Positions 10,172 through 30,966 of a stretch of 64,000 bases of DNA are shown here, one piece after another. This DNA is from Trypanosoma brucei (taxonomy: Eukaryota): positions 128,001 through 192,000 of the forward strand of contig CP000071.1 of assembly GCA_000002445.1 (NCBI GenBank), given 5' to 3'. A program made the position numbers and the translations under genes. The notes below the pieces were generated by a model. It did not search any database, was not told the origin of the DNA, and was given only the letters and a program-made list of their open reading frames with translations. Positions within the stretch are counted from its first letter, which is position 1; every line of letters starts with the position of its first letter.

Positions 10172-10845
10172 TTTAAACACTTGTAGTCCCCATAGTAGCT
10201 TCTAGCTTAATGATAGCGTACAACATAAAGAAATTCAATACATCCTTCTCCAAACATATATATATATATGTATGTGTGTGTTAATTTCCTTTAAACTTCA
10301 CTCCCCTCACTTCCTTATATACCAAACTTCCATACCTTATCTAACCCCATATGTTAAGTGTTACATTACTCCTAATTTTCAACGTTCCAGCAGTATTTCT
10401 TTCACGCTGTTCATAATTCTATAAGGCACCGCCCATCATATAGGGTAAACTATTTTTAACCTTTTAATTCTATTTTCTTACTTTGTACTATGTGTACATA
10501 GGTTATTATATGATGTATATGAAAATTGGTAAAAAGAAGCAACAGTTATATTCAATTCCGAGAACACCTCATGGTGTAAATATAAGTTTTTAAAACTAAT
10601 GATACCATTCGTTACGACACAAATATCCTCTCGAATATTACAACAATCTTATTTATACCTTTAAATTCTTAATAAATAAATAATTATATTATCGACAGTA
10701 TTTCGTGATTATTCTTTGACGAATTCTTTTGGTCCACCCATGACGTTACCGTCATACAACAATTTATTAAAAATAACATAAAATGCTTAGTAAAAAAAAG
10801 AAAATATTACCCTTATTTTCGTGTAATTTCCCATTGTTTCGCTTT
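10172..10845. repeat. Duplicated segment X, copy 1 (the 3' flank and last ~18 codons of gene A). The second copy is at 13218-13855.
   Basis: Near-identical strings in both copies: cttgta[g/a]tccccatagtagcttctagcttaatgatagcgtacaacataaagaaattcaatacatcc... through ...aaaatattacccttatttt. Confidence 0.8.
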
Positions 10846-11618
10846 AATGGACTTCGAACAACTTCATCATCATAATTTTCTTCATCATCTTCACCACTAT
10901 TACTTTCGTTTCCTTCCCCTATTGATTTTCTTCTTTGCATTCTTCCACGATATTTTCCTTTTCCCCCCTTACTACTATCCTCTTCATCCTCATCCTCATC
11001 CTCGCCCTCATCTTCTTCCTCGTCCTCCTCTTCATCCTCATCGTCTTCATCGTCTTCATCGTCTTCATCGTCGTCTTCCGTCCATAATCCTCCGTATGGT
11101 CCAACAATTTCTACACCCCGCACTCTTTGAATCTTCTCAGGGGTGAGGTAAGTGACAATACATTTTCCATGCACTGTACCCCAATGATCGTAATCTCCAA
11201 CATTTTTGGCCCATTTTTTTTCAAATTTCAACATATCCTTGGTGCATTTCGCAGCTTTGCTTCTCGTTAGTGGAAAGGTCCCATTTAGTTGACACACGGG
11301 ATTTATCCCCAAAAAATTCCAGCCTTTCATTGTTCTTCCCACAGATTCGAAGCTCGTATGATTCCATCCCTTTTTCGAATAGGCCAAAGCAATGCCACCC
11401 TCCTCACCCCCTCCGCAGTGCATCTTCCCCCACCTTATCCTCTGACCACCTCTTTCGCAATAAAACCGCATATGTCCACCTTTTTCAAATGCGGCGCACA
11501 CCTCGTCCAGTGATAATGAATTCCTATAGAGCGCATACATTTTGAGAAGTTCCCAAAAAGAGGCTTCAGCAGAGGACCCGAGAAAGCCGAGAATGAGCGC
11601 CAGTACTATGGTTTTCAT
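10767..11618 (-). CDS. Cassette gene A, copy 1: a 283-aa predicted secreted/surface acidic protein. Signal peptide MKTIVLALILGFLGSSA, Cys-containing N-domain, long D/E run, basic stretch, hydrophobic C-terminal tail (GPI-signal-like). Family unknown.
   Basis: ATG verified. The 17-aa N-terminus and ~18-aa C-terminus are identical to the ORF at 13813-14628. The internal ~240 aa are only distantly similar, though the Cys/Trp spacing is conserved. Confidence 0.6.
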   Translation of the reverse strand: MKTIVLALILGFLGSSAEASFWELLKMYALYRNSLSLDEVCAAFEKGGHMRFYCERGGQRIRWGKMHCGGGEEGGIALAYSKKGWNHTSFESVGRTMKGWNFLGINPVCQLNGTFPLTRSKAAKCTKDMLKFEKKWAKNVGDYDHWGTVHGKCIVTYLTPEKIQRVRGVEIVGPYGGLWTEDDDEDDEDDEDDEDEEEDEEEDEGEDEDEDEEDSSKGGKGKYRGRMQRRKSIGEGNESNSGEDDEENYDDEVVRSPLKRNNGKLHENKGNIFFFLLSILCYF

Positions 11619-12296
11619 ATTGATCTCCTACTGACAAACACAGAAAAAATGCCCATATATTTTACCCAATACTCACTAACGTATTCGATATACCTTCTCC
11701 CATGGTTGTAAGTAATTTTAGAAGAAAAGAAAAATAACAATTATCAAAAGGTTATATAACGCTCTTTTATTAGTTACTCCCTCTCGGCACTCATAATCCT
11801 CATCATCGGCCTCATCGCTGTTTTCACCTTTACGCCTGCATATTTTGGATTTACTCTTTTCACCTTTAACCTTTGAAACTTTAGTCTCCACAATTACCTC
11901 TTCCTTCTTTCGTTTTTCTTTTTGATATCCAAACTCTTTTACACGATTCTTTTCTTCGCATTGATTTAAATCTTCATCCTCTTCAGTTGCATCATACCTG
12001 GCAAAAGGCACATTTTCACTAGTGTTTGGCATTTGGGATTCCATAATGACGGACTTTATCTGAGTGCTTTCTTTGCTGCAGTTCCCTCCTATTCGTTTGC
12101 ATGTGCTTTCCATAGCACTTCCTGCAAGAGCCGCAAAAATGGTGGAAACAATTTGAGTGCCTACGCTTACACCTTGAGGTGGCGAGTAAACATGGTTCAA
12201 GGCTATGATGCAGTGATTCTGATTTCTTAAACGCCACACCCGCATTGGACCAGTAGCTTCTGTACGCGGGGTTGCCGCGAAATGCGCAGGCGCACA
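11571..12296. repeat. Duplicated segment Y, copy 1 (gene A signal-peptide codons, the A-B intergenic region and the 3' two-thirds of gene B). The second copy is at 14581-15297.
   Basis: agaggacccgagaaagccgagaatgagcgccagtactatggttttcatattgatctcctactgacaaacacag... is identical in both copies. Confidence 0.8.
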
Positions 12297-12662
12297 ATCG
12301 TTTATTGGTTCAACGATTATGGTTCGCCGCCTGCTCACCCGGCAGCATGGGTTGTAACCGCGACCACGAAAGGTGTCATTTACAAACTTGGCCCCGGGGT
12401 CTGAGAGGTGACGCTTCCAGTCTTCTAACGTCCATTGCGTAGGCAAAAGGTACATTCTACCGTCCTCTCCTCTAGAACACAATGTTATGTTCCACCCCTG
12501 CTCTGATTTTCGGATTTTGCTGTCAAAGTTACATGCTACAATAACACTTTCACCATCGATAAACCAAAAGGCGTGGCAATTCCTCACTCTGTTATATTCC
12601 TCACCATTACAGAGTGAGGAAAATAAAAGTATTATTAAAATAGCGCCTATCTGTTTACACAT
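11718..12662 (-). CDS. Cassette gene B, copy 1: a 314-aa predicted secreted/surface protein. Signal peptide MCKQIGAILIILLFSSLCNG, Cys-rich N-domain, E/K-rich acidic-basic region, hydrophobic C-terminal tail LLIIVIFLFF. Family unknown.
   Basis: The ORF-track start at 12671 is TTG; the first ATG is at 12660-12662. The C-terminal ~175 aa are duplicated, nearly identical, at 14728-15255. Confidence 0.55.
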   Translation of the reverse strand: MCKQIGAILIILLFSSLCNGEEYNRVRNCHAFWFIDGESVIVACNFDSKIRKSEQGWNITLCSRGEDGRMYLLPTQWTLEDWKRHLSDPGAKFVNDTFRGRGYNPCCRVSRRRTIIVEPINDCAPAHFAATPRTEATGPMRVWRLRNQNHCIIALNHVYSPPQGVSVGTQIVSTIFAALAGSAMESTCKRIGGNCSKESTQIKSVIMESQMPNTSENVPFARYDATEEDEDLNQCEEKNRVKEFGYQKEKRKKEEVIVETKVSKVKGEKSKSKICRRKGENSDEADDEDYECREGVTNKRALYNLLIIVIFLFF

Positions 12663-13217
12663 CAAGAACAATTCTGAGGGCGTAAATTTTTAGAGGCAGT
12701 GAAGCAACAGATTGTGCACCACAACGTGGTTTAGATCTTTGGTTTCTAAAGGTAGTAGTGATAGTAAAGCAAACCAACATTGTGGAGTAAAGAAAGAATG
12801 AGCTCAGAGCAAAATAGAAAATGATGTGAGGTGTAATTTATATTTTCGTGAGATAGAGGATTTTTAATTTTTTTTTGTTGGAAAAAATTCCAAAGAGAAA
12901 ACTTTTTCAAATTGTAGTTTCCACTTCCAACCCTGATTCTTCTATTTTCAAAATTAAATATATGCAGAGCGGCACAAATCACCACCTACTATTCATTACA
13001 ATCATCTACAAATGTTGTGGTAAGTTATACCAAATGTAATACCGTTTTTATAAAACATAAACACATGATAATTACGCTCCGTTGCTTTCAATTAAAATAT
13101 CGAGTAATTCTATAACAGAATAGTCAACATTAAAAAAGAACTCTATCAAATTACGAAAAATCACACAAAAGGAACAATATAACAGGAAGTACCCATCCTG
13201 AAAACGCGGCACTTTTC

Positions 13218-13855
13218 TAAACACTTGTAATCCCCATAGTAGCTTCTAGCTTAATGATAGCGTACAACATAAAGAAATTCAATACATCCTTCTCCAAACA
13301 TATATATATATATGTATGTGTGTGTTAATTTCCTTTAAACTTCACTCCCCTCACTTCCTTATATACTAAACTTCCATACCTTATCTAACCCACCATATGT
13401 TAAGTGTTACATCACTACGAATTTTCACTGTCCCAACAGTATTTCTTTCACGCTGTTCATAATTCTATAAGGCACCGCCCATCATATAGGGTAAACTATT
13501 TTTAACCTTTTAATTCTATTTTCTTACTTTGTACTATGTGTACATAGGTTATTATATGATGTATATGAAAATTGGTAAAAAGAAGCAACAGTTATATTCA
13601 ATTCCGAGAACACCTCATGTTGTAAATATAAGTTTTTAAAACTAATGATACCATTCGTTACGACACAAATATCCTCTCGAATATTACAACAATCTTATTT
13701 ATACCTTTAAATTCTTAATAAATAAATAATTATATTATCGACAGTATTTCGTGATTATTCTTTGACGAATTCTTTTGGTCCACCCATGACGTTACCGTCA
13801 TACAACAATTTATTAAAAATAACATAAAATGCTTAGTAAAAAAAAGAAAATATTA
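13218..13855. repeat. Duplicated segment X, copy 2
   Basis: See copy 1; roughly 95% identical by eye, with small indels. Confidence 0.8.
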
Positions 13856-14628
13856 CCCTTATTTTTTTGAGGACTTGCGGTACCTTGTTTTACCAGGTTT
13901 TGAAAATCTTCATTATCATTCGCATATTCATCATCGGCATCAGCACCATGTTTGTCATCTATTCCTTCTTCGTGTGCATTCTCACTACTCAATATCGTTT
14001 TTCGTTTTTTTGCGGTTCTTTTTCTCTTTTTGTGTCGCCTTTTTTTTTCAACTTCAAGTTCTCTAGTCATATTCTCTTCTTCATTCCTGCTCTCTTCTGG
14101 CTCGTCGTCCTCGTTAACTTCCACTGCTTCTCCTTCAGTTGAAAGAATGTCAAGAGGACGAGTGGTGATAATGCACTTCCCTTTCGCAGGATCCCAGCTC
14201 TTGTACCTATTACCATTTTTTACCCTTCGCTCCATCTTTTTTAGCGACTCGTTTGTGCATTGGGTGACCGGAACCTTAGGTAATTCAACTTCGTCATCAA
14301 TGGTGCACTCTGGATTCACTCCCAAATAAATCCAGTCATCCATATCTTGTTCCAGCAATATGTGCTTCTCGTAAGACTTCCACTCGTTTGAATAGGAAGC
14401 AAAAACATTCCCCTTTTCGTCGACACCGCAACTCATTACCTTCCAAATCGGCAACTCATTCCCCCTATGGCAAAACATCTGCATACCCCTGTCATCTGCA
14501 AACGCGGAGCACAACCGTTTGGGTGTCCCGAGGTCATCGTAAAACAAGTGCTTAATTTTATCCCATTCCTCTTTATCCGCAGAGGACCCGAGAAAGCCGA
14601 GAATGAGCGCCAGTACTATGGTTTTCAT
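13813..14628 (-). CDS. Cassette gene A, copy 2: a 271-aa paralogue of gene A with the same signal peptide and C-terminal tail but a strongly diverged mature region
   Basis: ATG verified. MKTIVLALILGFLGSSA... and ...KNKGNIFFFLLSILCYF are shared with copy 1. The core aligns only by pattern (C-AF...F-C-RG...W...CG...E-G...YS...W...LG-NP-C). Confidence 0.6.
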   Translation of the reverse strand: MKTIVLALILGFLGSSADKEEWDKIKHLFYDDLGTPKRLCSAFADDRGMQMFCHRGNELPIWKVMSCGVDEKGNVFASYSNEWKSYEKHILLEQDMDDWIYLGVNPECTIDDEVELPKVPVTQCTNESLKKMERRVKNGNRYKSWDPAKGKCIITTRPLDILSTEGEAVEVNEDDEPEESRNEEENMTRELEVEKKRRHKKRKRTAKKRKTILSSENAHEEGIDDKHGADADDEYANDNEDFQNLVKQGTASPQKNKGNIFFFLLSILCYF

Positions 14629-15297
14629 ATTGATCTCCTACTGACAAACACAGAAAAAATGCCCATATATTTTACCCAATACTCACTAACGTATTCGATA
14701 TACCTTCTCCCATGGTTGTAAGTAATTTTAGAAGAAAAGAAAAATAACAATTATCAAAAGGTTATATAACGCTCTTTTATTAGTTACTCCCTCTCGGCAC
14801 TCATAATACTCATCATCGGCCTCATCGCTGTTTTCACCTTTACGCCTGCATATTTTGGATTTACTCTTTTCACCTTTAACCTTTGAAACTTTAGTCTCCA
14901 CAATTACCTCTTCCTTCTTTCGTTTTTCTTTTTGATATCCAAACTCTTTTACACGATTCTTTTCTTCGCATTGATTTAAATCTTCATCCTCTTCAGTTGC
15001 ATCATACCTGGCAAAAGGCACATTTTCACTAGTGTTTGGCATTTGGGATTCCATAATGACGGACTTTATCTGAGTGCTTTCTTTGCTGCAGTTCCCTCCT
15101 ATTCGTTTGCATGTGCTTTCCATAGCACTTCCTGCAAGAGCCGCAAAAATGGTGGAAACAATTTGAGTGCCTACGCTTACACCTTGAGGTGGCGAGTAAA
15201 CATGGTTCAAGGCTATGATGCAGTGATTCTGATTTCTTAAACGCCACACCCGCATTGGACCAGTAGCTTCTGTACGCGGGGTTGCCGCGAAATGCGT
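14581..15297. repeat. Duplicated segment Y, copy 2
   Basis: See copy 1. Confidence 0.8.
14728..15297 (-). pseudogene. Cassette gene B, copy 2: a 5'-truncated copy retaining only the C-terminal ~175 codons
   Basis: It is nearly identical to 11718-12296. Sequence similarity ends at ~15297. The upstream B reading frame hits TGA immediately, and no signal-peptide region is present. Confidence 0.7.
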
Positions 15298-18200
15298 AAT
15301 TGGGCTCCGACGTCAGCCCGGGACTGAACATTCTTGCTGCCACCAGGCAAATGGCATTTGCCTTTTATGTGGAAGCGCCCATACTGTCAGTGCTTTCGCT
15401 TCTCTACCATACGTTCTTTCCTTTGAAATTCCAGTGTTTCGTTTGTGCTTCAACTGTACTCTAAATGAAAATATAGTACCTATAGGGTGTTAGTCATATA
15501 ATTATGTTAAAGTACTATATTATATTTTTTACATGACAACGGTGAAGTGTTCAACATGTTTATGTCCAACGAGAGTCGCCGATGACGACGAGTACGCCAG
15601 ATGGCTGCGAGGCCCATATTGGGTCGAAAACCAAGATCTTGAGGGTGCTGTGGGTCGCATTAGCAGGTTGTTATTATTATCGCTTGCTCTCGTCTGGCAG
15701 TCGGTTACGGAAGATAATTTAGCCCTAACGGTGTCATATAATAATCTTACCAATTCAATGAGCTACGCTACTCCACTCTCTACACTCCTGCGCCTGTGTT
15801 TGGTTTTTGTGTCAACTTTAGATGGAAATGCTTTAGTGAAGCGGTCTATCATCCGCTTCTCAGTTTTAACTGTGGAGAGTTTTCCTTATCAAGCACCACA
15901 CGATCACGACTCCGGTATGTTTACTAACTTTCATCCCCTTTTGTTAATATTTATTTTTTGCAACCACCATGTGGCAAAGTGGATATGAGCTGCTCCTGTC
16001 TCCATCATTTCGCCATTGCGCCCTGTAATCACCCTTTCTAAATGTTGAATCACTTCTCGAGGACTCCTCGAAAAAAAAAAACCCTGACCATCACCATTCC
16101 CTCTCACTAACTCCCCTTCAAACTCTTATACATAGAGCGTGTAGCTGCACAAGACGGTGTTACACGTATTCGTCCGCCACGCGCAAGGAGAGCCTGCATC
16201 TCAACACTTTCAACCGTCAGCATTATCAGCTGTTTGACCACGGGCATCCCATGAAAATGCTTTCAAACTTCATGCAGGACGAACCAATCTCGGTGGAGCT
16301 GTAGTCGCTATGCACTTATGATTATACAAATGCACCCCTCGTTGTATTTCCAGTTGGCTTCCAAAACACACGAAAAAAAGGAGAGTGAATATGAAATATT
16401 CGAATCCATCACCGACGCATGAGCATTTGTAGTTGGAGCAGGCGCCAATGTCAACGATTCCTCCACAAGTATATAAAGATATATTATTTCACTCACCGGA
16501 AGTATTCATAGAAAGCAAGAAAAAGCATTAAGAGACCACACCTCAGGAGTCTTCACGCTGGAAAGGCTACTCCGCACATTCTTTACGGGCGCAATTGGCA
16601 CGTTCATGACCTTTTACCGCCCACCACCGAGAGGGGCATGTGGCTCCCAGGCGGTATTGTAGAAAAAAAATGCGGCGACAGCATCGAGTTAAAAACAAAC
16701 ATAACACACGTCCATACAAAACAGGGACACAGAAAGTAATTGTCCCTGCACCCTTTCTCAAATGAGAGAGATCTTCATTGGCTGTCAGAAAGAAAAAAAA
16801 AACATCACTGCTTAGTAAGAGGCATCATTTTGAAGAAAGCTCATAATTCAACAAATTCGTTCTTACAATAAAAACGACTGAAATAACAGTTTCTACAAGA
16901 TGTAGGCAGCCGTACACTAGCGTGATGATATGAAGCATGGTATTCGCTCAGGCTTCCGATCTATGAGGAAGTAGAAAAATAGCGGCAAACGCTTGATGTA
17001 GATAATTATTCACAAGGTCCGAAAATAGTATAGGATTCTCTCAGGTAATATCGAATGAACTCATACTCCAATTTGAGCCACAGGAAACACTTGTGCCAAA
17101 CACGTTTCTGCAAACCATCAACCTTTATTCAAGAGGCGGTGGGCACATTTATACCAACGGAAAGCGCGCTGCCTGTAGGCGAAAATATGAAATTCCCGCA
17201 ACAAGCCATGAGATGCACCAACAACGTCTTACACAGGAGGCGAATGTGTTATGCAATACGCTATTGAAGAAGGGTTTTCACGGCCGCTAGCGGAGGGAAT
17301 GCCACCGAACGGCTTCAGGATGACAATAATTCTTGGGATCAACCGTGATCATCTACAGGGAGCGTGGGGAGTTAAATTGGGGCTGGCGACTGAGCCAAGT
17401 GGTGACCATCGTTTTATCGGGTCCGGAGCAAACCATATTGGAGTACTTACCGATAAGTCTTCGTGCACACGCTAAAGAAACAGGTGCAAACCTGCCGGTG
17501 CGGCGAGAATTGGGCGAACGAAACCGTGCGATTGTCAGCAACAATAACCCCGTCATAAAGGAGGCAATTCCGAAGAGGATGAATGGGCTGGTGTCAAATT
17601 TTGGAAGCGAAAATTATGGAGTACACGCGGGGAAATAAAGCGGTATGAAAACGGAAAGGGCGCTGATCAAACTGGAGATGGAAAAAAAAACCTGGGTAAC
17701 GCGCAGGTCTCAAATCCTTTGGGCCAACCACTCGGTCCAATAAAGGAGCAGGAGGTACATGCAAAGAACGAGGGTTATAGCTATCAAAAATGAGGGAACA
17801 GGAATGATATCGGCCTCAAGGAACTGAACGGGCAAAGAATGATCATGCGCTCTGCCTGACAGTGGTGAAAGCGCATATTTAGCTTTTTTTTTTTGCAGAG
17901 GGGGATGCAGTTGTCAGACGCGCTGAGTTCGAGCTAGCAAGAGAAGAAAAAATAAGGCAAAGCGCCGTGAGCAACAGCGCGCATCCCAAAGAATGAGAGT
18001 TGTTCCGACGTATTTAATGAGTTGTAGCTTAACCCAGGAAGTGAGAGAGCGGACCGCAAAGCAGACGACCGGCGTACAGGACACATGAAAAAGATTAACG
18101 AGAGGCAGAAGTAGCGGGGGGAGGGAATTTAGAAGGAACACCTGACACGGGGCCGACTGCCAAGTTCAGACGGGTCCATCACGCTGGACGCGCTTTCGTG

Positions 18201-20506: not shown

Positions 20507-21635
20507 TCAGTTATGCTTCCGCATTGGGAAACGCAGATCCTCCAACTTCAGTAGATTTTGTAATCCGTTCAAATTATTTAGGTTCATACAGTCAAATATG
20601 TCCAATTTTTTTTTGAAATTACAAAGAATCTTTATGGCATCGATATTTTTAAGACCTACACATCCCGAGAGATCCGGTCTTTCTAAACTCCTTAAATAAC
20701 GTAGTTCACTAATATTGTTCAATTTGGTACATCCGGATAGGTAAAGCGTTTTCAACCCAACAACTTTTTGAAGCCCATCCAGATCCTTTAGATCCGTACA
20801 ATGGTTTAGGTAAAGCTCTTTCCAATTTCGGACATCCCCGCAGAAACTTCGCGCCACCCACCGACGCACAACCGTTGAGATTTGTTGCTTTTACTTCATT
20901 TTTTTTTTTTCGATGCACAACTCACTTACGTTCCTCAGATTGTCACGATCTGATAAACTCAACGCATCCAAATTACGCGCATCCGCGAGACCACGCACTT
21001 CGCGACGACTTGGGCACCCTTTGACTACGAAGGACTTCAATCCGACGCAGTCACTCACATTGATCTCCGTTAAAGTTTCGCACCGCTCCACATGGAGAGC
21101 AACAAAATTATCTGCACGGCACAAATTCGCGTTTTTTTTAAAGGTCGCGTACACTTTTAGTTTGAGAACTCCATCCGTTTCAGAACCGATGAAGAACTCT
21201 ATATTTTGTGTTGTATCGTGAAACCCACGAATTGAGTACATGTCCACACCATCCCCAACTATTTGGTGTCATGCCGCGGCCGCAACCTGCTCTGTGGCTG
21301 CATTTCCCCGCGAGCGGAAGAATTGTTTGATTAGGCGTCGTCGCCTCATGGTTGGGACGTTTCGTCATCTCCCTTTCGGTTCTGGCACCATTCTCAGTTT
21401 GCTTCCGCCTGACCGGCAGTTCCACTTCACCAGGTTCAGTTTTGTTCTTATTCTGTGGCGCATCTGCTGCTTCCATCCGCGGATCCCTCTGGTTTTCCCC
21501 CACCTCCGTTGTTTTGATTGTGAGTCTCCTTTTTTTCCCCCTTGAAAATGAGATGATCTTGCCGTTCACAAATGCAGAGTAGCCCACCAGCATTATCATT
21601 AACAGACATTCTCCTACTACTGATGATGTTTCCAT
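20507..21635 (-). pseudogene. Leucine-rich-repeat protein (ESAG8/LRRP-like) pseudogene, broken into three overlapping reading frames
   Basis: LRR units of the ESAG8 type (LxxLxLSGCxxLxNIxxL, e.g. LKTLYLSGCTKLNNISELRYLRSLERPDLSGCVGLKNIDAI; LTEINVSDCVGLKSFVVKGC) appear in ORFs 20507-20869 and 20891-21247. A third frame covers 21180-21635. Confidence 0.6.
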
Positions 21636-23119
21636 GGCCCTCTCAACACTTCCGTGGTAAAATTTATTTATTTATTTCCTGCATAATGAGCAACCCTGAA
21701 ATGAGAATAACTGGTCATGCGAGAATAAGTATTTACAGTCCTCTTACTCCAAACCGACCTGCGACTGCGGCAAATACCCCTCTTACGCGTTCATCTCGAA
21801 GCAGCTGCCAGCCGCTAACCGGCAACCATCAAACTTTCAATCATTTCTCAACTACTCTAACTATACACACACGCAAAAAAAAAAAGAACTCAGAAAAAGT
21901 GGGACACAAGTAAACACAGAGGGTCACATACGTTTATTACCATTCCACTTCTTATTTTTCTCCACACCTGCACGACTACTACTAACCCGTAACCTTAAAC
22001 AAAGGATAGACATATACTTTACTGCCAACGCGAAAAAAAAAAATGTTCGTGGGGAAGACACCAGTTTACACATTACCTCTTAAGGATTTGCACCGTGTTA
22101 TTGCAGCAAAATCTGGGCTTCCACGACGAGCGTGGCTTGAAAAGGTGAAGAAGCGAAAATTCGTAAGCACCCCCCCCGCAGCACAACATAAAAACATCAC
22201 AACATAAACGAAATCCCTGGAACGCACTCGTTGAACGTGTGCCCACACGCAACTCTTTTCGCCAAACTTCATCACAACAGCAAGTGGAACATCAAGAAAA
22301 GGTACCCAAAAACTTTCCCCCGCCTGCTGCATAATCGGGTCGAAAAGTTCAGCAGCACAAATGAAGCCGGTGCAGCTTTTTTTTCTTCCACCGGAATCCT
22401 GAACCATGCCATCTCAAGGATGCAATAACGCCGGTGGCAACCTTTCGGCACCGTGCATTACCTCGCCGGATCACCGCCGCAGCGCGGCCCCGTAACCCTA
22501 AATGAAACAAAAAAATGAAATCCACCGTAGGCGACACCGTAGGCACTGGCATTACTGCATTAAAGAAAACGTTCTACCTGAGTCGTTCTGGGATGGAAAA
22601 CAAATCGGCGCTCTCTTCAAAATAGCTTCGTGACTGTTAGCATAGGCAAATTATTCCAAGATCCCTTCAATATTCTAGTTTCTTCAACGAGTGCATTACA
22701 GCAAGGAAACAAAAGCAAACACGTGCTCGCAAAAAATGTGTGAAAAACAAAATTACAGAACCACACGAACTTTATTTTTTCATTCACCTCATCGATGTTT
22801 TTTCTTCACTTAAAACTCCTGAAACGATCGTCAATGTAATGAGGCACTTGCAACACGATCCAAAGTGGATGAATTCCCAACCAACAGGTTCATTCCCCCC
22901 ACGCCTCGTCACAGACTATGAAATACCTCACACACGCAGCGATTATCGTTATATTCCATTTCTTTCCCTTAACCCAACTAAAGCGGATGTTGACCACAGC
23001 AGAATGCGCAAGTGGAGCTACGGGCCAGACGAACGATCTACAGAAATTTGATAGTGCGTTCCCTTCCTGATGTTTTTACGGACCCTCACAGGTAGTTTCC
23101 ATAGCATAATAACGTGTGC

Positions 23120-23147
23120 GGGGTTAGGGTTAGGGTTAGGGTTAGGC
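23120..23147 (+). repeat. Interstitial telomere-type repeat (TTAGGG)4.5
   Basis: ggggttagggttagggttagggttagg read directly; the G-rich strand is the plus strand. Confidence 0.9.
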
Positions 23148-23634
23148 CAGCACCACAGCATTCGATAAGACAAAACAACAAGTCACAAAAATAGGATCAC
23201 ACCGGACATACGTGCCTGTCGCTGCTTTAAAATAAGGATGCAAAAAGCAACGAGCGCATTTGACATTGGCAATAAAAGGGAAAATGAGTGGGCAACAACA
23301 CCAAAGGATTTACCCTCCGCTCCTCCATCACCCACTGCAAGTGAAAATAACCATAGAAACAATAGTTTCGACCTTCACGCAGTGCGGGGAGCAAGTTGGC
23401 TCCCTTCAGATGCAAGAGATGAGAATTGTGTGATCCTTCCAAACCTTGCCTTTTCTATCTGCGGTATATTTGTCAAAGCGCCTAACCTTCAATGTCACTC
23501 AGAGAAAAGAAAAAAATAAGACAACATGTCATCTCACATCACCTTTGTCCTCCAAGTGAAGATGAAACATTGCCACTCACGAACTAGTGTGCGGGGTAGA
23601 ACAATTTTGAGACGCGACTGTCTCTGGCGCACCT

Positions 23635-26600
23635 TTATAGCAGTAAAGTATCTGATGCGTCGATATTCTTACTGTTGGAAGAAAATATGACGGCCCCAAT
23701 GCGGTTCAACACGCTTCGAATGGACGAAAAGGACGGAAAAACTACTGCACCTGAGACCAACTGAGGCACCTGCCGCAACAATTCCATCATAACAGCTTCA
23801 CAGCACGCGCTCCATACGTTGGCCAGTGAAGCGCCATGGAAGTCCTTGCGGTGCGTACCGGGAAGAGTTATTTCAGCACGGTGAATGGAAGGGAAAATGT
23901 TACCGACGTGAGATCCTTTAAAAATAATGTCCTCAGGCGGCCGGTCACTCCTATCGTACGTGAAGAGCACAAATATATCGGATATTTTTATAAAGTGGAG
24001 CTGCACACTCATGAATTTAAGTAGCTTCCAACAACTAAGCATGCCGCGCTGCACACGTACCACATTCTCCAAATCCTTGTTAGTTTCTGAGGATTTGTAG
24101 CGTCTTCCTAGCCTCCGCATTTGATACACAAAGGTGTCCGATAGTTCCAATTCAAGAGTCGTGACGTGACTGTACACGGAAGAGGCAAGAATAGCGTTGC
24201 CGACGATTCGTGCGTCGCGAACAGTGAGATCAATACTGAAGGGTTTTATTTCATGGCTCATCTTCCCGTTGTAGGTACCATTGCTGCGCATATTGGACAC
24301 TGTGCATTGAACTGTCACCCTCTTGTGTTCGTAAACCAACCACGACTCACATCGGCCCACCACGCAGTTAATTGGAATGTTATCCCCATCCTCCACAAGC
24401 AAACCAATACCACATGCTTTCACACCAGCACGCAACATCATCTCCTCTACAGGCGTCTCAACTATCACAGCGCTACCAACCAATGTTCCTAAGCCACTTC
24501 GCAGCGAAGAAATAGCGTATGTTGTCACAAGGGTGATAACCCATCCGACCGTGTCCTTCCTTTGGTGAATGAAGGCTGCTACATCGTTTCCAATTTCTAC
24601 CTCTGTTCCGTGGGACAGAAGGACCCGGAATCTCCGTGAAGAGTTAACACCTTCACGAAGAACCAATACCACTTCGCCACTAGTTAAGGAATGAGGAGTG
24701 TACGATGAGACACTCATACGGGGTACCTTCTCATAGTTGTGCGATGTTAAGTTGACGACAGTCACGTATGGGGGGCGTGGTTCACTGACTGACACCACAG
24801 TTGGTTCGAAGCGGTCCTCCTTGAACACGCGAATCTCATGGTGTGTGTCTCCGCACTCGATGAAAGCAGATGAGCATGTCTGTGGTAAGAGGCTCACCGC
24901 CACAGGCGCGCTAAATTCGATGTTTACAGTTGTGTCGCTACCCTTTGCGCTCCATGCGAATGCAAAATTTACAACTTCATCATTCGCTAGAGCAGTGTAA
25001 GATACCGTCCCCCCCGCGGGAACTGTGAAACAGTGTGGCAACTCATCGGTAAACAACCCACCCCTTCTCGTTACGTGTCTTACTTGGAGGTCCCGTAAAT
25101 CATCCATGTTGGTAAAAAGTAGAGGTGGTATTAGCTCCATGAAGTAACCGAAGCGATCGACTCGAGACCGCATGAGAAAAAGATGAGGCTGTCCGAGATG
25201 TGTGCCTTTGACGCTCATCGGTGCGCAGAAGAGCGGGCGTTCCTCAAAATCTTCGGTAACTTCAAAAGAAACGGAACTCAGTTCTCCCGCATGTAATACC
25301 AGGCGAGTGTGAAGGGGTAGATATGCAAAGTTTCGGCCTGTTGCGTGACTCAATGCGCCATCCCGGATCAAACCAGTTGGTTTCCCTACCTCGGTGGTAA
25401 ACCTCACATCCGTACCAGAGTTATTTTTAAGCCCAAAGACGCCATAGGGGCGAACGGTGCAGACACTAGGCGCAGTGCAGCTGCCAACATCCTGCTGTCC
25501 AATATCCAGTTCAAAGAAGCGCTTGTAGGGAAATTCCCTGTGCCTCATCAGAACCCTCTGTCTTAACGATCCTTCGTTGAAACACGCTTCAACACGATCA
25601 GTACTGAAATAGATGTCTGAGTAAACTATACTTTCAAAAACATAATCCACCCTTGGACCAAAGGGATCGTGCTGCAGCGTAAAAAAAGTGCCGCTCGGTT
25701 CGATAATGCATTCCTCAACAACAAGATCACTGATTAGTAGTAACACTTTCATATTAAAACGGGTTCCATTATGAATGCCAAGTCGTGCGGGAGATAGAAA
25801 CATCGTGAGAACGCCGCCACTCAGAAGATAAGTGACATCAATATATACTGGCACGTCTCCCAGCACAAACTTCCTGAGACGCCCAATAGAATCATCCCCA
25901 CGCTCTTCGGCCAACTTAAATAAAATTCTCAATGAGCCTTCGCTAAGCAATTGCTGCTCAGATGTGCAGGCACTATTGGAGGACATCAAGCAAAGAGATA
26001 TGTCGTCCCTAGAAATAAGGTGAATGGGGACAGGTAAGGTTTCGCCTGGAGGAACTTCCAGCTTACCGACCGAGGAATCGATAGCCCCAAGCACCACACC
26101 ACATGGTAACCTGTTGCTAATTTGAAAACTGGTGCGGAAGCTCACACGTTGAGAGAGGGTGTGGTCGAGTACCTGCCTAACAATTCGAACCTTCTCTCCA
26201 GATGTTAATGTAACGACACACGCCCTGCGTAGCACATCCGTGAGTTCTTTCTCTGGGTTGGGGTCTCGGTAACTCTCAAAATGCGATATTCGGCAGTTGT
26301 CAACGGAGTGAATGCAACGTGGAAAGACAAGATGGTTACCATAAAATGTTTGGCGCTCCTTAACCACAACGCGCTCCCCGTCATCGACGTCCAAAACCAG
26401 TGATACCCCAAGCTGGTTAATTACTTCCACCGTGGGGGGTACCGTAAGTCCCCTTCCAAAATTTCCCGGAAGGAAGGAGGATGCAATGAATTTCATTTGC
26501 TCTATCGAAACAGACAGATCGAGTGAAGAGAGTAAAGTTTCACATGCAACGTGTTTCGAATCTAACAAACGAGCAACTGCTGCGACTGACAGAGGGCGCT

Positions 26601-29600
26601 GCAACGCGCGTTTGTAGGACTGTGAGCAGAAGTCCCACAATGTTAATTCCTGTACACCAAATCGGAAATCCACATGCGCTTCTCCTCCATCAGCTTCAAC
26701 TTTCGATCGGAGTAGGGACTTGTTAACGGCCATATGCGCAACCGATGCACCACCGCGAAGGAGGATATCGATGGGGAAGGCAGACACAGCAATAGACCAC
26801 TTCCCCTCCCCGAAAAGATATTTCAAGCGTTTATAACACAGCAGAGGCGATGTCCTTGACCTTCCGTTGAAACCTTTGCGACAACTCGTCCCGCCAATGA
26901 GCTGCTGCATTGTTTCAACCAAACCCATGGGGACCCCAACACGATCAACTTGAAGTGTGGCGTTCACGGTACCAATATGCTCTTTACACCTTGTTGCGAC
27001 GTTTACAGCGGAAGTGGTGCTAGAAAAAACGCGCGAGCAAACGCTGCCATCAATGTAGTCGACCCAACTGTTTTGTAAGCAGAGTTGAAGCCCCAATCCG
27101 TAAGAGGTGGAACACAAACAGTCACCCACGAGGGTAAACGCAAATGTAAGTTGACAACCCGTAGGAAAAAGAAGTTCCCCTCTACTATGGTGAATCATCA
27201 GATGAAGTCCATGAGGCACTATGCAACGTAAAATGTCTCTCACATTAGGAGCATCAAGTTGCGTTGCTTCATGGGTTTCAAGTTTTTTGATTGTGTCATC
27301 ACAGTCCAAAAGAAGAAAAGATCCACTTTCATCCTCAACTGCAATAGAACTCCGAATCAACGTGGAGATGCGACAACGTTGAAAAAGGACATGAGTTCCC
27401 CGACATACTACTAAGCGAGCACTTCCACGAACAGCTAAAAACTCGCACTCCACAACGTTAACAACTTTGCCCGGGCAATTAAAGAAACACGAGCCGATCA
27501 TATCGAGGTTATATGACACGTCATGCAGGTAATCTGCTGTGATAACGTGCTTTCTTGATAGTGAAGTAGCCATGCGGCGTATATCCAATAGTGCATCAAA
27601 CAGTTGCCGAACCGGGTACGGTGTGTCGCACAAGTTTGTCTTGAGTTCAATGCATTCCAACTCAACAAGCGCCTGTTTTTCAAAGGTTGATAAAACGGAT
27701 GTTGCCTCCGCACCGTATTTACGGGCGTCCTGCGTGGAAGCTGTTGAGGCGAGAACAAATTTCAACGCCTCCAATTTCAATGAAATAACATCCCCACCAT
27801 ACATTGTTATTGACTGCACATTCAGTTTCAAAGGGGTCAAACCACCCTCCGCATGCACTCCAAGCACACACATCGCCTCTTTTCTGAAGAGAAATGAGGC
27901 AGAAAGATCACGGACTTCCACCTTCAAACAAGAGGAAGGTAAAAGAGGGTGAAGCACATCAGCGTCCACAGCGGGTATGTACAGTTCCTTTGTGTATGCA
28001 CCGCAGCTGTTAATCAATAGCGCGGGTGGTGAATCACGTAGTTCATGAAAAAACTCACTGAAACGATTGAAAAAGGAAAGAGCGCTTTCACTGCCCGCAT
28101 TTGGGATCCTGCATCGACATTGCAGGACCCCAGATTCGCCAAATGACAAGACGCAAGTTGTGTTGCAGAGTGCTATTGCAATTTCGCAACTGTTATGCGG
28201 AAACGCGCAGCACCATTCCCTCCACGCATGTGGACTTACGAAAAGTGCGCCGCACGATTCCATCGTTGAAGTAATTTGCTTAAATTCCCCAGCAGTCAGC
28301 CGATCAACCCGCACGCAAACGGAACCCACACTGATTAGGACACAAGCCACTGGTGGAAGAAAGTTATGTGTTAAAGCAGAGTGCAACCGGGAACAAAAAG
28401 AAACACGAAGGGGTGCAACCTCCACTGCGTCTAAAACTTGAACTGTCTCGACCGAAAAATGAGACATTGGGTGGCTCAATCCCAACTGTAAATTTGATGC
28501 AGAGAGCAATTTCTGCGTCGAGAACACTCCCAGCGTAACTTCCACGACGCTCGACGACGCCAGTGCGCAAAACAAACGACCCTTCGATAGCGAAGCCACC
28601 CGGCACTTGGCGCCGCGAGGAAAATCAATGATGAAAAAGGGTTTGCTAGCATCCTCTGTTGTAAGCATAAATGATCGCAGATGAATGCAAAGAACATCCT
28701 CGTCACTCACATTCTTAGAGGAAAAAATACGCGTTTCTCCAATAGTTATGACGCTTTCCGTTGGTACAAACCAACACTGAATGCACTTTATGCAAATACA
28801 CTGGCTTTTTTTCTTCCTCCTCGATACCTGATGAATATCTGCAGCGGTAAAAATTTCTTCCCAGCTCGAAATAGAAACGTTGGCGTTGCTCGATCTCTGT
28901 GTGCGCTTGGTGGCCCCTTTATACGACTCATAGCCGACCCAAGCAACTTCTGACCATTCGCTACAAATATGCTTAAGGTACTCCCAAAATGCAGGGCAAA
29001 TATTAAACTTTAACTCAGAAACAATGATGTTACCCTCATCTCCCATTCGCACATTGATGGGCGCAACTAATTCGTGGGCCCCCTCACCAAAGTGTGCGGA
29101 CAGGGCGTGTAGCGAAACTCCAATTTGTGAGCCCCTCGGAGCATCTCCTTTAATGATTATTAGCGAGAGTTTCTCACATTCGACATTGATATCGTCGATA
29201 ATTAGCCGGAGGAAGGGTAGAACAAAACTCATCTTCTCCATGGTTCCACGAGATGATGGTGCTGGTGCGGTTCTTGATGTTGCAACCATCTCCACAAAGA
29301 GAAGTGGTAGAATGGAGGCTACCGGTTTGATTGTTTCGAGTAGTCGCGGTGTCGATAATGCAATGCGAGTAGGTTCTACATTTACCTTTAGGGAACACGC
29401 TCCCTTCGTCTTGCGTTTCTGAAAGCTAAAAAACGGCACGTCAGAAGCACCCGGTAGACGCAGAGTTTCCCACATGCTGTCATCTTTTAGTGATACGTCC
29501 CCAATGTGAACATTAGTCTCGTCCACTCGGCTAACAAGGGTAATCTCACCCAGAAGCATAACAGTTCCCGTTGGAAAGTAAATGTACACTTCACCAATGT

Positions 29601-30966
29601 CCACATGAATGGAAAGCATTATTGCATCTACAAGCTGCCTCCCTTTACCTCCATCACTTGCTATATCAGAGGTGACTGATGTCCTGGCATATGTTTCCAT
29701 CACCGTGCGTCTAAGGAATAAAATGACATCCCTGTAGCGAACTTTCTGCTCGATTTCAACCATTGCGTCTAGTTTTGCTGAAATGTCGCCCACTTGGTGG
29801 CAGTAATTCAGTAGTTGAATATATGCACGCCGCGCTTCTGCAAAAGAGCGGATATGAGATAAAGTAAAGTTGTACCTCCTCCTTCGATCTCGAAGGAGCT
29901 CCATCACGCAACAATGCGCATAATTCCACAAGGATGCGGAGCCACGGAGATGTATATGGGGGTGGCAGTACACAGGAAGCTCCAAAAACGAGCGACTCGC
30001 TGCTAAATAAGCGTGCAAGGCGAGGAGGACGTCGTGGTTAACTAGCAGAGACACCTGTTGCTCCAATGATATGGTGACGTTTTGCCTACACAAAACTCCA
30101 CGCAGGAATACAGATGTAACACAAACCGCTGCAACATCAGTGGTCACGAACGTGGCGCACAACTCTCCAGCAAACGCCTTAGCAGTCACGTCACTGACGG
30201 TTGCCTTCACAACTTTTATCTCTTCAGTTCCGTTACAAGCACATGGCTCCACATGTACTGCAAGATCCCGGAAGACTATTTCAAGTCTTGTGTTCGAGTT
30301 GGGTCCAACCGATAACATAAGAGTGAGGACATCTACATTAACAAGAATCTTTCTGTCCACCAAACCGGACATAGTACTCTTGACCACGCCGTATAGGTAT
30401 GATATTATACCTTCCTCCCCCTCTACGGCCTCATTGCCCCCCGGGTCTACATAAGTTGAGGATGAACTAACTTCGCTACAACAAGACATGCACTCATCCT
30501 CGTCATCATGTGCGTCCGCATGCTCCTTCGCGTGATCAATAGGTTTGGGGCTTGCAGTCGACGAACTAACACGTGAGTGACTTCTACTTGAGTTACATGG
30601 TGATGTAGCACAGTTCCTATTCCCAAGGATGCTTTGTTCTGTTATACCGCTTCGTATGATGTCTGAACTCAGTTCCGTTTCAGTATCAGAAGTGGCCAAA
30701 TGAGAGCATGTGTTCAAATGTAGCCTCGCTTCTTTGGCATGAACAACAAGAGCATCTTTGGATGATGGCCACGGTATGTCGAAGTGAATTTCCGTTACGT
30801 GACCTGATTCGACAGGGAGTTGAGTGATATCTCTCAGTGCATCCTTCTTGAGCTTGACGTTGCGAATTCGAAGTGACCTTTTGGTTAAAGAACTCTCCAC
30901 ATCGAAAGGGTTCACATCCGCCACTTTCGCGACGCGGGCCAACAAAAACGAAATAATATGTTGCAT
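23635..30966 (-). CDS. Giant (2443 aa) Chorein-N-domain protein, VPS13/ATG2-family bridge-like lipid-transfer-type protein
   Basis: The N-terminus MQHIISFLLARVAKVADVNPFDVESSLTKRSLRIRNVKLKKDALRDITQLPVESGHVTEIHFDIPWPS matches the Chorein_N pattern (…LLNRYLGEYVENL…GDVVLENLxLKxxALDxLxLPxxVKxGHIGxLxLxIPW). It is one uninterrupted 7.3-kb ORF. The ORF-track start at 30990 is GTG; the first ATG is at 30964-30966. Confidence 0.65.
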   Translation of the reverse strand: MQHIISFLLARVAKVADVNPFDVESSLTKRSLRIRNVKLKKDALRDITQLPVESGHVTEIHFDIPWPSSKDALVVHAKEARLHLNTCSHLATSDTETELSSDIIRSGITEQSILGNRNCATSPCNSSRSHSRVSSSTASPKPIDHAKEHADAHDDEDECMSCCSEVSSSSTYVDPGGNEAVEGEEGIISYLYGVVKSTMSGLVDRKILVNVDVLTLMLSVGPNSNTRLEIVFRDLAVHVEPCACNGTEEIKVVKATVSDVTAKAFAGELCATFVTTDVAAVCVTSVFLRGVLCRQNVTISLEQQVSLLVNHDVLLALHAYLAASRSFLELPVYCHPHIHLRGSASLWNYAHCCVMELLRDRRRRYNFTLSHIRSFAEARRAYIQLLNYCHQVGDISAKLDAMVEIEQKVRYRDVILFLRRTVMETYARTSVTSDIASDGGKGRQLVDAIMLSIHVDIGEVYIYFPTGTVMLLGEITLVSRVDETNVHIGDVSLKDDSMWETLRLPGASDVPFFSFQKRKTKGACSLKVNVEPTRIALSTPRLLETIKPVASILPLLFVEMVATSRTAPAPSSRGTMEKMSFVLPFLRLIIDDINVECEKLSLIIIKGDAPRGSQIGVSLHALSAHFGEGAHELVAPINVRMGDEGNIIVSELKFNICPAFWEYLKHICSEWSEVAWVGYESYKGATKRTQRSSNANVSISSWEEIFTAADIHQVSRRKKKSQCICIKCIQCWFVPTESVITIGETRIFSSKNVSDEDVLCIHLRSFMLTTEDASKPFFIIDFPRGAKCRVASLSKGRLFCALASSSVVEVTLGVFSTQKLLSASNLQLGLSHPMSHFSVETVQVLDAVEVAPLRVSFCSRLHSALTHNFLPPVACVLISVGSVCVRVDRLTAGEFKQITSTMESCGALFVSPHAWREWCCAFPHNSCEIAIALCNTTCVLSFGESGVLQCRCRIPNAGSESALSFFNRFSEFFHELRDSPPALLINSCGAYTKELYIPAVDADVLHPLLPSSCLKVEVRDLSASFLFRKEAMCVLGVHAEGGLTPLKLNVQSITMYGGDVISLKLEALKFVLASTASTQDARKYGAEATSVLSTFEKQALVELECIELKTNLCDTPYPVRQLFDALLDIRRMATSLSRKHVITADYLHDVSYNLDMIGSCFFNCPGKVVNVVECEFLAVRGSARLVVCRGTHVLFQRCRISTLIRSSIAVEDESGSFLLLDCDDTIKKLETHEATQLDAPNVRDILRCIVPHGLHLMIHHSRGELLFPTGCQLTFAFTLVGDCLCSTSYGLGLQLCLQNSWVDYIDGSVCSRVFSSTTSAVNVATRCKEHIGTVNATLQVDRVGVPMGLVETMQQLIGGTSCRKGFNGRSRTSPLLCYKRLKYLFGEGKWSIAVSAFPIDILLRGGASVAHMAVNKSLLRSKVEADGGEAHVDFRFGVQELTLWDFCSQSYKRALQRPLSVAAVARLLDSKHVACETLLSSLDLSVSIEQMKFIASSFLPGNFGRGLTVPPTVEVINQLGVSLVLDVDDGERVVVKERQTFYGNHLVFPRCIHSVDNCRISHFESYRDPNPEKELTDVLRRACVVTLTSGEKVRIVRQVLDHTLSQRVSFRTSFQISNRLPCGVVLGAIDSSVGKLEVPPGETLPVPIHLISRDDISLCLMSSNSACTSEQQLLSEGSLRILFKLAEERGDDSIGRLRKFVLGDVPVYIDVTYLLSGGVLTMFLSPARLGIHNGTRFNMKVLLLISDLVVEECIIEPSGTFFTLQHDPFGPRVDYVFESIVYSDIYFSTDRVEACFNEGSLRQRVLMRHREFPYKRFFELDIGQQDVGSCTAPSVCTVRPYGVFGLKNNSGTDVRFTTEVGKPTGLIRDGALSHATGRNFAYLPLHTRLVLHAGELSSVSFEVTEDFEERPLFCAPMSVKGTHLGQPHLFLMRSRVDRFGYFMELIPPLLFTNMDDLRDLQVRHVTRRGGLFTDELPHCFTVPAGGTVSYTALANDEVVNFAFAWSAKGSDTTVNIEFSAPVAVSLLPQTCSSAFIECGDTHHEIRVFKEDRFEPTVVSVSEPRPPYVTVVNLTSHNYEKVPRMSVSSYTPHSLTSGEVVLVLREGVNSSRRFRVLLSHGTEVEIGNDVAAFIHQRKDTVGWVITLVTTYAISSLRSGLGTLVGSAVIVETPVEEMMLRAGVKACGIGLLVEDGDNIPINCVVGRCESWLVYEHKRVTVQCTVSNMRSNGTYNGKMSHEIKPFSIDLTVRDARIVGNAILASSVYSHVTTLELELSDTFVYQMRRLGRRYKSSETNKDLENVVRVQRGMLSCWKLLKFMSVQLHFIKISDIFVLFTYDRSDRPPEDIIFKGSHVGNIFPSIHRAEITLPGTHRKDFHGASLANVWSACCEAVMMELLRQVPQLVSGAVVFPSFSSIRSVLNRIGAVIFSSNSKNIDASDTLLL

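What the first reader, a model, noticed from the sequence alone, without database searches (positions are those of the whole stretch)
23120..23147. Interstitial (TTAGGG)4.5 tract exactly at the junction between the accessory region and the housekeeping polycistron
The telomere-type repeat lies ~500 bp beyond the 3' end of the first core gene, the Chorein-N gene ending at 23635. Everything on its other side is accessory (LRRP pseudogene, duplicated surface cassette, VSG, ingi). A short interstitial telomeric tract here could be a scar of an old chromosome-healing or fusion event, or of subtelomere capture. The G-rich strand is the plus strand, which would correspond to a telomere whose end pointed toward higher coordinates, that is, toward the core, which is unexpected. 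Telomere-like repeats in trypanosomes are also enriched with base J/H3.V at transcription termination sites, so this may mark the end of the minus-strand transcription unit.
Basis: partly seen in the sequence, partly recalled or inferred. Interest (0 to 1): 0.55.

Follow-up and report, generated by a model that had tools for sequence, protein, structure and literature searches.

The report
Short interstitial telomere repeat, probably a scar
A real 26-base stretch of telomere repeat lies inside Trypanosoma brucei chromosome 8, just past the last gene whose position is conserved across species; it looks like an old DNA-repair scar and does not mark where transcription stops.

Summary
Window 23121-23146 (+) is a perfect GGGTTA x4.3 tract, 488 nt past the stop codon of the Chorein-like gene (23635-30966, minus strand). 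It is the only perfect hexamer repeat of at least 4 copies in the 64 kb.

The window is the left arm of T. brucei chromosome 8 (Tb927.8.480-.680). T. b. gambiense DAL972 and T. equiperdum carry the tract at the same site. Both flanks are collinear and about 98-99% identical, but the tract is one hexamer shorter (3.3 copies). It is therefore real, predates the split of these genomes, and changes length by slippage.

In T. theileri and Leptomonas the synteny Rpn10-Miro-MsrA-Chorein is kept. The next gene differs (aldolase; amino-acid transporter) and there is no tract. So the tract does lie in a lineage-specific breakpoint interval.

The termination idea is not supported. Same-strand genes downstream (Tb927.8.480-.520) are expressed. 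Tb927.8.480, 15.4 kb further on, is reported as the last ORF of the unit. These genes go down, not up, in an H3.V knockout.

Best reading: a short interstitial telomeric sequence left by telomerase during break repair or rearrangement, now neutral. This is ordinary, and interest is low to moderate.

The parts
23120..23146 (+). Interstitial telomeric tract: GGGG(TTAGGG)3TTAGG, with a perfect GGGTTA x4.3 at 23121-23146. The G-rich strand is the + strand, which is the template strand of the minus-strand transcription unit, so the primary transcript would carry (CCCUAA)4.
   Evidence: Orthologous 3.3-copy alleles at L001:19125-19148 and L002:19118-19141.
23147..23634 (-). 488-nt non-coding spacer between the stop codon of the Chorein-like gene and the tract (3' UTR and/or intergenic). 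In the RNA sense it contains pyrimidine-rich runs.
   Evidence: About 98.6% identical to DAL972 and T. equiperdum. Unique within the window. No Rfam match.
23635..30966 (-). Chorein/VPS13-like gene, 2443 aa. Tb927.8.540 is inferred from the numbering: .530 is the LRRP pseudogene and .550 is MsrA. It is the last gene of the synteny block conserved across trypanosomatids.
   Evidence: the source names it 'N-terminal region of Chorein'. Searches show the same gene order in Leptomonas, T. theileri and T. grayi. Only 30% identical to the T. theileri orthologue.
21636..23119 (.). Unique non-coding left flank of the tract. The 113-aa ORF at 22066-22407 is broken in other strains by homopolymer-length changes, so it is probably not coding.
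22494..22541 (.). About 47 nt (boundaries approximate) present in the window but absent from DAL972 and T. equiperdum. One edge of it creates the weak second telomere-like hit (TTAGGGTTACGG, minus strand, 22490-22501). It is not an independent telomeric relic.
   Evidence: hit; alignment columns 1164-1210.
20507..21635 (-). Leucine-rich-repeat protein pseudogene fragments (Tb927.8.530), the first recognisable feature beyond the tract.
   Evidence: LRR_4 and LRR_EndoS hits. (PMC2837033 names Tb927.8.530 as an LRRP).
7693..15343 (-). Same-strand genes downstream of the tract. PAP2 phosphatase Tb927.8.480 is at 7693-8691. The segmentally duplicated cassette is Tb927.8.490/.500 (10767-12671) and .510/.520 (13813-15343). 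All are expressed, and Tb927.8.480 is the last ORF of the transcription unit.
   Evidence: sequence. (identities and expression from PMC4288722, bioRxiv 10.1101/2021.05.27.445749, PMC3332058, PMC4721609 S1 Table).
6289..7692 (.). Convergent region between a +-strand VSG fragment (4915 to about 6290, with a VSG 3' motif at 6274-6288) and the minus-strand PAP2 gene. This is where the minus-strand unit is reported to end, not at the tract.
   Evidence: DAL972 has a VSG_B gene on the opposite strand beyond PAP2.

Best explanation
The tract is a short interstitial telomeric sequence (short ITS) that was already present before the sampled T. brucei-group genomes diverged. It lies in the non-coding spacer downstream of the last gene of a synteny block conserved across trypanosomatids, inside (not at the end of) a Pol II polycistronic unit.

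Likely origin (inferred). A double-strand break in this spacer accompanied the joining of a lineage-specific gene block (LRRP, duplicated cassette, a dispersed PAP2 paralogue). The 3' end of the left-hand DNA ended in ...GTGCGGGG. Telomerase extended it by a few TTAGGG units, since the G-strand can only be made in that direction. The end was then joined to the Chorein-side DNA.

Since then the tract has behaved as a neutral hexamer microsatellite, gaining or losing one unit by replication slippage (4.3 versus 3.3 copies).

Shown: presence, uniqueness, orthology in three genomes, the one-unit polymorphism, the position at a synteny breakpoint, and continued transcription beyond it.
Inferred: telomerase involvement, the break, and neutrality.
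For: - Exact telomere unit; the only perfect hexamer repeat of at least 4 copies in 64 kb.
- Same site in T. b. gambiense DAL972 and T. equiperdum, with both flanks collinear and 98-99% identical and exactly one hexamer fewer.
- Flanks are unique sequence, with no degenerate telomere repeats or subtelomeric repeats next to the tract.
- The conserved order Rpn10-Miro-MsrA-Chorein continues into a different gene in T. theileri (aldolase) and Leptomonas (amino-acid transporter), with no tract.
- The PAP2 gene beyond the tract has its closest T. congolense and T. vivax relatives in a chromosome-10-type core context.
- Substitution divergence from DAL972 in the 500-bp bins covering and flanking the tract is 1.0-1.7%, comparable to another intergenic bin (1.0%), with no discontinuity at the tract.
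- The canonical G-quadruplex motif exists only in the 4.3-copy allele, which argues against a conserved structure-dependent role.
- Short ITSs inserted at break-repair sites are an established class in vertebrates (PMC7215372, PMC8537989, listed).
Against: - No 'empty' orthologous site could be examined. The nearest outgroup obtained (T. theileri) is too diverged to align in non-coding DNA.
- T. theileri and Leptomonas differ from each other as well, so the ancestral neighbour is unknown.
- No flanking telomerase-RNA-derived sequence was detected, but the T. brucei telomerase RNA was not available for comparison (one search is only an Rfam scan).
- Across a genome of about 35 Mb, one or a few telomere-unit microsatellites could arise without telomerase. 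That is my own estimate, and this tract was picked because it is telomeric.
- Neutrality is inferred, not shown. Ten GGGTTA units are enough to seed base J on a Leishmania plasmid (PMC4344527), so a chromatin effect of 4 units is not excluded.
Confidence: 0.58

Rival explanations
1. Relic of a true telomere. The lineage-specific block to the left once ended in a telomere pointing right. That end fused to, or was captured by, a broken end next to the Chorein gene, and the array eroded to four units.
For: - The orientation fits only a telomere belonging to the left-hand block.
- The position is a synteny breakpoint.
- The left-hand block contains typically subtelomeric gene types: LRRP pseudogene, VSG, ingi.
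Against: - There are no degenerate repeats, no head-to-head arrays and no subtelomeric repeat families beside the tract. Both flanks are unique.
- The genes next to it on the left are transcribed away from the supposed end, unlike telomeric expression sites.
- The +-strand VSG is 17 kb away.
- The tract is perfect, whereas old fusion ITSs are usually degenerate (general knowledge of ITS classes).
Confidence: 0.15
2. Functional chromatin element. The tract recruits TRF and/or seeds base J and H3.V. It then acts as a partial Pol II attenuator or boundary between the housekeeping genes and the co-regulated tail cluster Tb927.8.480-.530.
For: - GGGTTA repeats are a de novo entry site for J in Leishmania.
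- Tb427.08.480-.520 are all flagged as within 10 kb of J and H3.V, and they respond together to H3.V loss.
- The same cluster also moves together in CTR9 RNAi, bromodomain inhibition and iron starvation.
Against: - Downstream genes are well expressed in wild type (RPKM 82 and 91 for .480 and .490). They go down, not up, when H3.V or J are removed.
- They are not in the PNUTS-RNAi up-regulated list.
- Tb927.8.480 is listed as the last ORF of the unit.
- The 10-kb J/H3.V flag is equally explained by the convergent VSG/ingi region at about 6-7.6 kb.
- The tract has only 3.3-4.3 units, and copy number and G-quadruplex potential are not conserved.
- The co-regulation could be post-transcriptional.
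Confidence: 0.1
3. Incidental microsatellite. A chance GGGTTAGGGTTA seed expanded by slippage, with no involvement of telomerase or of a rearrangement.
For: - Ongoing slippage is demonstrated by the one-unit polymorphism.
- Synteny runs straight through the site within the T. brucei group.
- Genome-wide, about 25 chance 12-mers of telomeric sequence are expected in 35 Mb (my arithmetic).
Against: - Perfect hexamer repeats are very rare here, with one other of at least 3 copies in 64 kb, and that one is coding. The coincidence of the unit being the telomere unit is roughly 1 in 350 hexamer classes.
- It also falls in one of the few synteny-break intervals.
Confidence: 0.15

Closest known systems
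Short interstitial telomeric sequences (short ITSs) of vertebrates, inserted by telomerase during double-strand-break repair (Nergadze/Giulotto model; PMC7215372, PMC8537989)
   Same: A few perfect TTAGGG units at an internal site, unique sequence on both sides, arbitrary orientation, and copy number polymorphic by whole units.
   Different: The defining proof is missing here: an orthologous locus without the repeat whose flanks are contiguous. No telomerase-RNA-derived flank was seen. The organism is a kinetoplastid, which lacks classical NHEJ (general knowledge), so the joining step would have to be microhomology-mediated.
Fusion-type or subtelomeric ITSs marking ancestral chromosome fusions or healed ends
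   Same: Lies at an evolutionary synteny breakpoint, next to gene families that are usually subtelomeric in T. brucei.
   Different: Only 26 bp, perfect, single orientation, and no adjoining degenerate or subtelomeric repeats.
Base J / H3.V-marked Pol II termination sites of T. brucei, including PTU-internal terminators (PMC2896530, PMC4721609)
   Same: Telomeric repeats are the main J- and H3.V-bearing sequence in the genome. The tract lies upstream of a gene cluster near a PTU end that responds as a block to H3.V loss.
   Different: Downstream genes are expressed and are not derepressed by loss of H3.V, J or PNUTS. The annotated end of the unit is 15.4 kb further on.

Membership tests
Short ITS (break-repair insertion class) | Tandem exact telomeric hexamers at a non-terminal site | tested here: met
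   26 nt perfect, with 40 kb of genes on one side and 23 kb on the other.
Short ITS (break-repair insertion class) | Few units, essentially perfect, flanked directly by unique non-telomeric sequence | tested here: met
   4.3 or 3.3 units. Flanks are unique in the window and conserved in three genomes.
Short ITS (break-repair insertion class) | Orthologous 'empty' locus in a related species with contiguous flanks | not testable with these tools
   All three T. brucei-group genomes carry it. The T. theileri spacer is not alignable. No T. congolense or T. vivax locus could be fetched.
Short ITS (TERC-ITS subclass) | Flank retro-transcribed from telomerase RNA next to the template | tested here: inconclusive
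   No Rfam family matches 21500-24000, but the T. brucei telomerase RNA sequence itself was not available.
Fusion-type or healed-telomere ITS | Long and/or degenerate arrays, or head-to-head arrays, with subtelomeric repeats adjoining | tested here: not met
   The only other telomere-like 12-mer (22490-22501) is created by a strain-specific 47-nt insertion.
Fusion-type or healed-telomere ITS | Coincides with a synteny breakpoint | tested here: met
   The next gene after the Chorein orthologue is aldolase in T. theileri, an amino-acid transporter in Leptomonas, and an LRRP pseudogene in T. brucei.
J/H3.V Pol II terminator (PTU end or PTU-internal) | Located at the end of the unit, or followed by silenced genes | tested here: not met
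   Literature data. Tb927.8.480 is the last ORF, at near-median mRNA level. Tb427.08.480 and .490 have RPKM 82 and 91 in wild type.
J/H3.V Pol II terminator (PTU end or PTU-internal) | Downstream genes derepressed on loss of J, H3.V or the PNUTS complex | tested here: not met
   The five downstream genes fall 2.3-3.2-fold in the H3.V knockout. None appears in the PNUTS-RNAi up-regulated list, where only Tb927.8.5920 and .5930 appear for the chromosome 8 core; that file was truncated when stored.
J/H3.V Pol II terminator (PTU end or PTU-internal) | Peak of base J and H3.V on the element itself | not testable with these tools
   Only a 'within 10 kb' flag is available for the neighbouring genes. 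No track data are held.

The most novel reading that the evidence does not exclude
The four telomere units act as a seed for TRF or base J. This creates a weak, condition-dependent boundary inside a Pol II unit. Everything downstream (Tb927.8.530-.480) would then form a separately tunable tail module. That module responds as a block to H3.V loss, CTR9 depletion, bromodomain inhibition, iron starvation and differentiation, and it tracks the procyclin/PAG loci in several of these perturbations.
Probability: 0.06. Interest if true: 0.65.

Novelty: new member of a known kind. Interest (0 to 1): 0.25.

Why it matters
If the scar reading is right, the tract is a small physical record of how a lineage-specific, strain-variable gene block was attached to the end of an ancient synteny block in African trypanosomes. 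It would also hint that telomerase takes part in internal break repair in an organism without classical end-joining. It gives a convenient polymorphic marker (3.3 versus 4.3 units) at the left arm of chromosome 8. It does not change current views on transcription termination, because published expression data argue that Pol II reads through it.

Tried and rejected
- **Assembly artefact.** Rejected: the same junction, with a different copy number, is in two other assemblies.
- **Second inverted telomere-like motif at 22490-22501, as the other end of an inserted element.** Rejected: it is created by a 47-nt insertion present only in the window strain.
- **Tract as part of a repeated element.** Rejected for the window: BLAST of 21500-23700 against the window found only itself.
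- **VSG 3' motif near the tract, which would suggest a telomeric VSG relic.** The only match is at 6274-6288, 17 kb away.
- **Non-coding RNA or telomerase-RNA remnant.** No Rfam match in 21500-24000.
- **Salivarian outgroups.** The Chorein protein search returned only 5 hits. The MsrA search returned no T. congolense or T. vivax locus on a useful contig. Loci L004 and L009 proved to be distant trypanosomatids, 21-22% identical. L008 has a different gene after MsrA. The T. grayi contig ends inside the gene.
- **Window source.** An exact-protein look-up of the window's own Chorein gene found nothing, so the source assembly is not in that collection.
- **Literature.** Searches for interstitial telomeric repeats in T. 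brucei found no paper describing this or any similar site.
- **Step in sequence divergence at the tract.** No step at the tract itself; substitution divergence rises unevenly to its left, with a peak of 8-11% at 16-17 kb.

Full report
**1. Observation**

The + strand at 23120-23146 reads GGGG TTAGGG TTAGGG TTAGGG TTAGG, bounded by ...gtgtgc on the left and ccagcacc... on the right. Tandem Repeats Finder reports 23121-23146 as period 6, 4.3 copies, 100% matches.

A telomeric 12-mer with at most 1 mismatch gives 4 matches against 0.27 expected, and no shuffle reaches 4. A 10-mer search finds only this site. It is the only perfect period-6 repeat of at least 4 copies in the 64 kb, and the only canonical G-quadruplex motif on the + strand.

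'4.5 copies' is a small overcount.

**2. Where this is**

All large ORFs from 7.7 kb to 64 kb are on the minus strand. Published gene identifiers fit the ORFs:
- PAP2 phosphatase 7693-8691 is Tb927.8.480.
- The duplicated cassette is Tb927.8.490/.500 and .510/.520.
- The LRR pseudogene fragments 20507-21635 are Tb927.8.530.
- MsrA 31733-32263 is Tb927.8.550, and the OB-fold protein 60554-61063 is KREPA5, Tb927.8.680.
- The 2443-aa Chorein-like gene 23635-30966 is therefore Tb927.8.540. This is inferred from the numbering only.

The window is the left arm of T. brucei chromosome 8, in chromosome orientation. Its minus-strand unit is transcribed towards the left end. The G-rich strand of the tract is the template strand of that unit, so the primary transcript would carry (CCCUAA)4, not a TERRA-like sequence.

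A relic of the nearby left telomere would read CCCTAA on the + strand.

**3. Related genomes**

An exact look-up of the MsrA protein fetched T. b. gambiense DAL972 chromosome 8 (L001) and T. equiperdum (L002). Both carry the tract at the orthologous position, but as ggCCTAACCCTAACCCTAACCCCgcac, one hexamer fewer.

A three-way alignment over about 2 kb shows both flanks collinear. It has about 1.2-1.4% substitutions on either side, and the hexamer is the only difference at the tract. DAL972 is collinear with the window from position 1 to 33000, apart from lacking one copy of the cassette.

The tract is therefore genuine, predates the divergence of these three genomes, and changes length by whole units. 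The 3.3-copy allele has only three G3 runs, so the G-quadruplex motif is not conserved.

The weak second telomere-like hit at 22490-22501 is produced by a 47-nt insertion private to the window strain.

**4. Synteny further out**

- In Leptomonas pyrrhocoris the order (363 aa)-Rpn10-Miro-like-MsrA-Chorein is kept. The next gene is an amino-acid transporter, and no telomere repeat is present.
- In T. theileri the same order is kept and the next gene is aldolase. The 1.8-kb spacer is AT-rich and has no tract.
- The T. grayi contig ends inside the gene.
- Two further loci (L004, L009) keep MsrA-Chorein, but their contigs end just after the gene, and they are distant species at 21-22% identity.

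The tract thus lies in an interval after which gene order differs in every lineage sampled.

The closest T. congolense relatives of Tb927.8.480 are named TCIL3000_10_.... The closest T. vivax relative lies in a tandem pair of PAP2 genes among housekeeping genes such as N-myristoyltransferase and a SNARE protein. This fits Tb927.8.480 being a dispersed paralogue.

Tb927.8.490/.500 are absent from T. evansi STIB805 and from DAL972. 'Accessory on the far side' is therefore fair. T. congolense and T. vivax loci for the Chorein gene could not be obtained, so the age of the junction is not bracketed.

**5. Is it a transcription stop?**

Published data argue against it.
[quoted passage not shown] Its wild-type level is 26.6 rpkm against a median of 30.6. 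Tb927.8.510 is given as 6 kb from the convergent stop. That places the end of the unit at about 7 kb in the window, 15.4 kb beyond the tract.
- In PMC4721609 S1 Table (Lister 427 bloodstream forms), Tb427.08.480/.490/.500/.510/.520 have wild-type RPKM 82/91/21/5/20. They are in the down-regulated list, at 3.2, 2.4, 2.6, 3.0 and 2.3-fold in the H3.V knockout. All are flagged as within 10 kb of H3.V and J. A J/H3.V-dependent terminator upstream would predict derepression instead.
- In the PNUTS-RNAi up-regulated list of PMC7055916, the only chromosome 8 core entries are Tb927.8.5920 and .5930. That file was truncated when stored.
- The 10-kb flag cannot separate the tract from the convergent VSG/ingi region at 6-7.6 kb.

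Whether J, H3.V or TRF occupy the 26 bp is unknown. Ten GGGTTA units are enough as a de novo J entry site on a Leishmania plasmid, so some modification is possible.

**6. What it most likely is**

It is a short interstitial telomeric sequence. Telomerase makes only the G-strand, so the DNA end that was extended is the left-hand one, ending ...GTGCGGGG, which is a G-rich primer. The few added units were then joined to the Chorein-side DNA. This step is inferred.

Supporting points:
- The exact telomere unit, the short perfect array, and unique flanks without degenerate or subtelomeric repeats.
- The location in a lineage-specific breakpoint interval.
- The one-unit polymorphism.
- Ordinary non-coding divergence in the 500-bp bins around it, 1.0-1.7% against DAL972.

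I put about 0.58 on this reading.

Rivals:
- A relic of a true telomere of the left-hand block, 0.15. The orientation fits, but no repeat debris is present and the adjacent genes point the wrong way.
- A functional J/TRF boundary or attenuator, 0.10. It is contradicted in its strong form and untested in a weak form.
- A chance microsatellite, 0.15. Slippage is demonstrated, but two coincidences are needed: the unit being the telomere unit, and the site being a breakpoint interval.

**7. Comparison with what is known**

The nearest described class is the vertebrate short ITS inserted at break-repair sites (PMC7215372, PMC8537989). The descriptive features are met. The defining 'empty orthologous site' could not be tested.

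Literature searches returned no paper describing interstitial telomeric tracts in T. brucei. That only covers the held library.

I rate it as a new member of a known kind, with low to moderate interest.

**8. Caveats**

- The expression data come from Lister 427 and other laboratory strains, not necessarily the window's strain.
- The identifier Tb927.8.540 is inferred.
- The neutrality and telomerase steps are inferences.
- The genome-wide frequency of such tracts was not measurable with the sequence available.

Noticed in passing
window 7693-15343 (Tb927.8.480-.520): These five same-strand genes at the tail of the unit behave as a co-regulated block in several published perturbations, often together with the procyclin/PAG loci. 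They go down 2.3-3.2-fold in the H3.V knockout. Tb927.8.480 and .510 go up 9.8- and 21-fold after CTR9 RNAi. Tb927.8.480 and .520 go up with a bromodomain inhibitor. Tb927.8.480.490 and .510 go up in iron starvation. Whether this is transcriptional or due to shared UTR elements is open.
   Followed up: partly
window 10170-12286 versus 13214-15296: A segmental duplication, 98-99.7% identical at its ends with a diverged middle, makes the two cassettes. DAL972 has only one copy. T. evansi STIB805 lacks Tb927.8.490/.500.
   Followed up: partly
window 16000-17000: Divergence from T. b. gambiense DAL972 jumps to 8-11% here, against 0.4-3.8% in the other bins between 15.5 and 23.5 kb and about 0.2% in the core genes. 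This suggests a different haplotype or a gene-conversion patch in a region without a recognisable gene.
   Followed up: no
window 23635-30966: The Chorein/VPS13-like protein evolves very fast. It is 30% identical to T. theileri and 21-24% to other trypanosomatids, although its position is conserved. Pfam gives no hit at E<=0.01 for the T. brucei protein.
   Followed up: partly
window 22066-22407: The 113-aa minus-strand ORF contains poly-A and poly-G runs whose lengths differ among the three T. brucei-group genomes (for example G8, G12 and G10). These differences shift the frame, so it is unlikely to be a real gene.
   Followed up: yes
window 300-6290: A degenerate ingi-type retroelement lies on the minus strand (reverse-transcriptase hit, several frame breaks). 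It abuts a +-strand VSG fragment whose conserved 3' motif variant GATATATTCTAACAC is at 6274-6288. The same arrangement is present at 95-97% identity in DAL972.
   Followed up: partly
window 16000-20000: There is strong strand asymmetry (AT skew up to +0.36, GC skew changing sign) in a stretch with no convincing ORF, between the cassette and the LRR pseudogene.
   Followed up: no
L002/L007 (T. equiperdum CM010679.1): The chromosome 8 scaffold of this assembly starts only about 3.4 kb to the left of the tract, so the accessory block is missing from the scaffold. This is probably an assembly limit, not biology.
   Followed up: no
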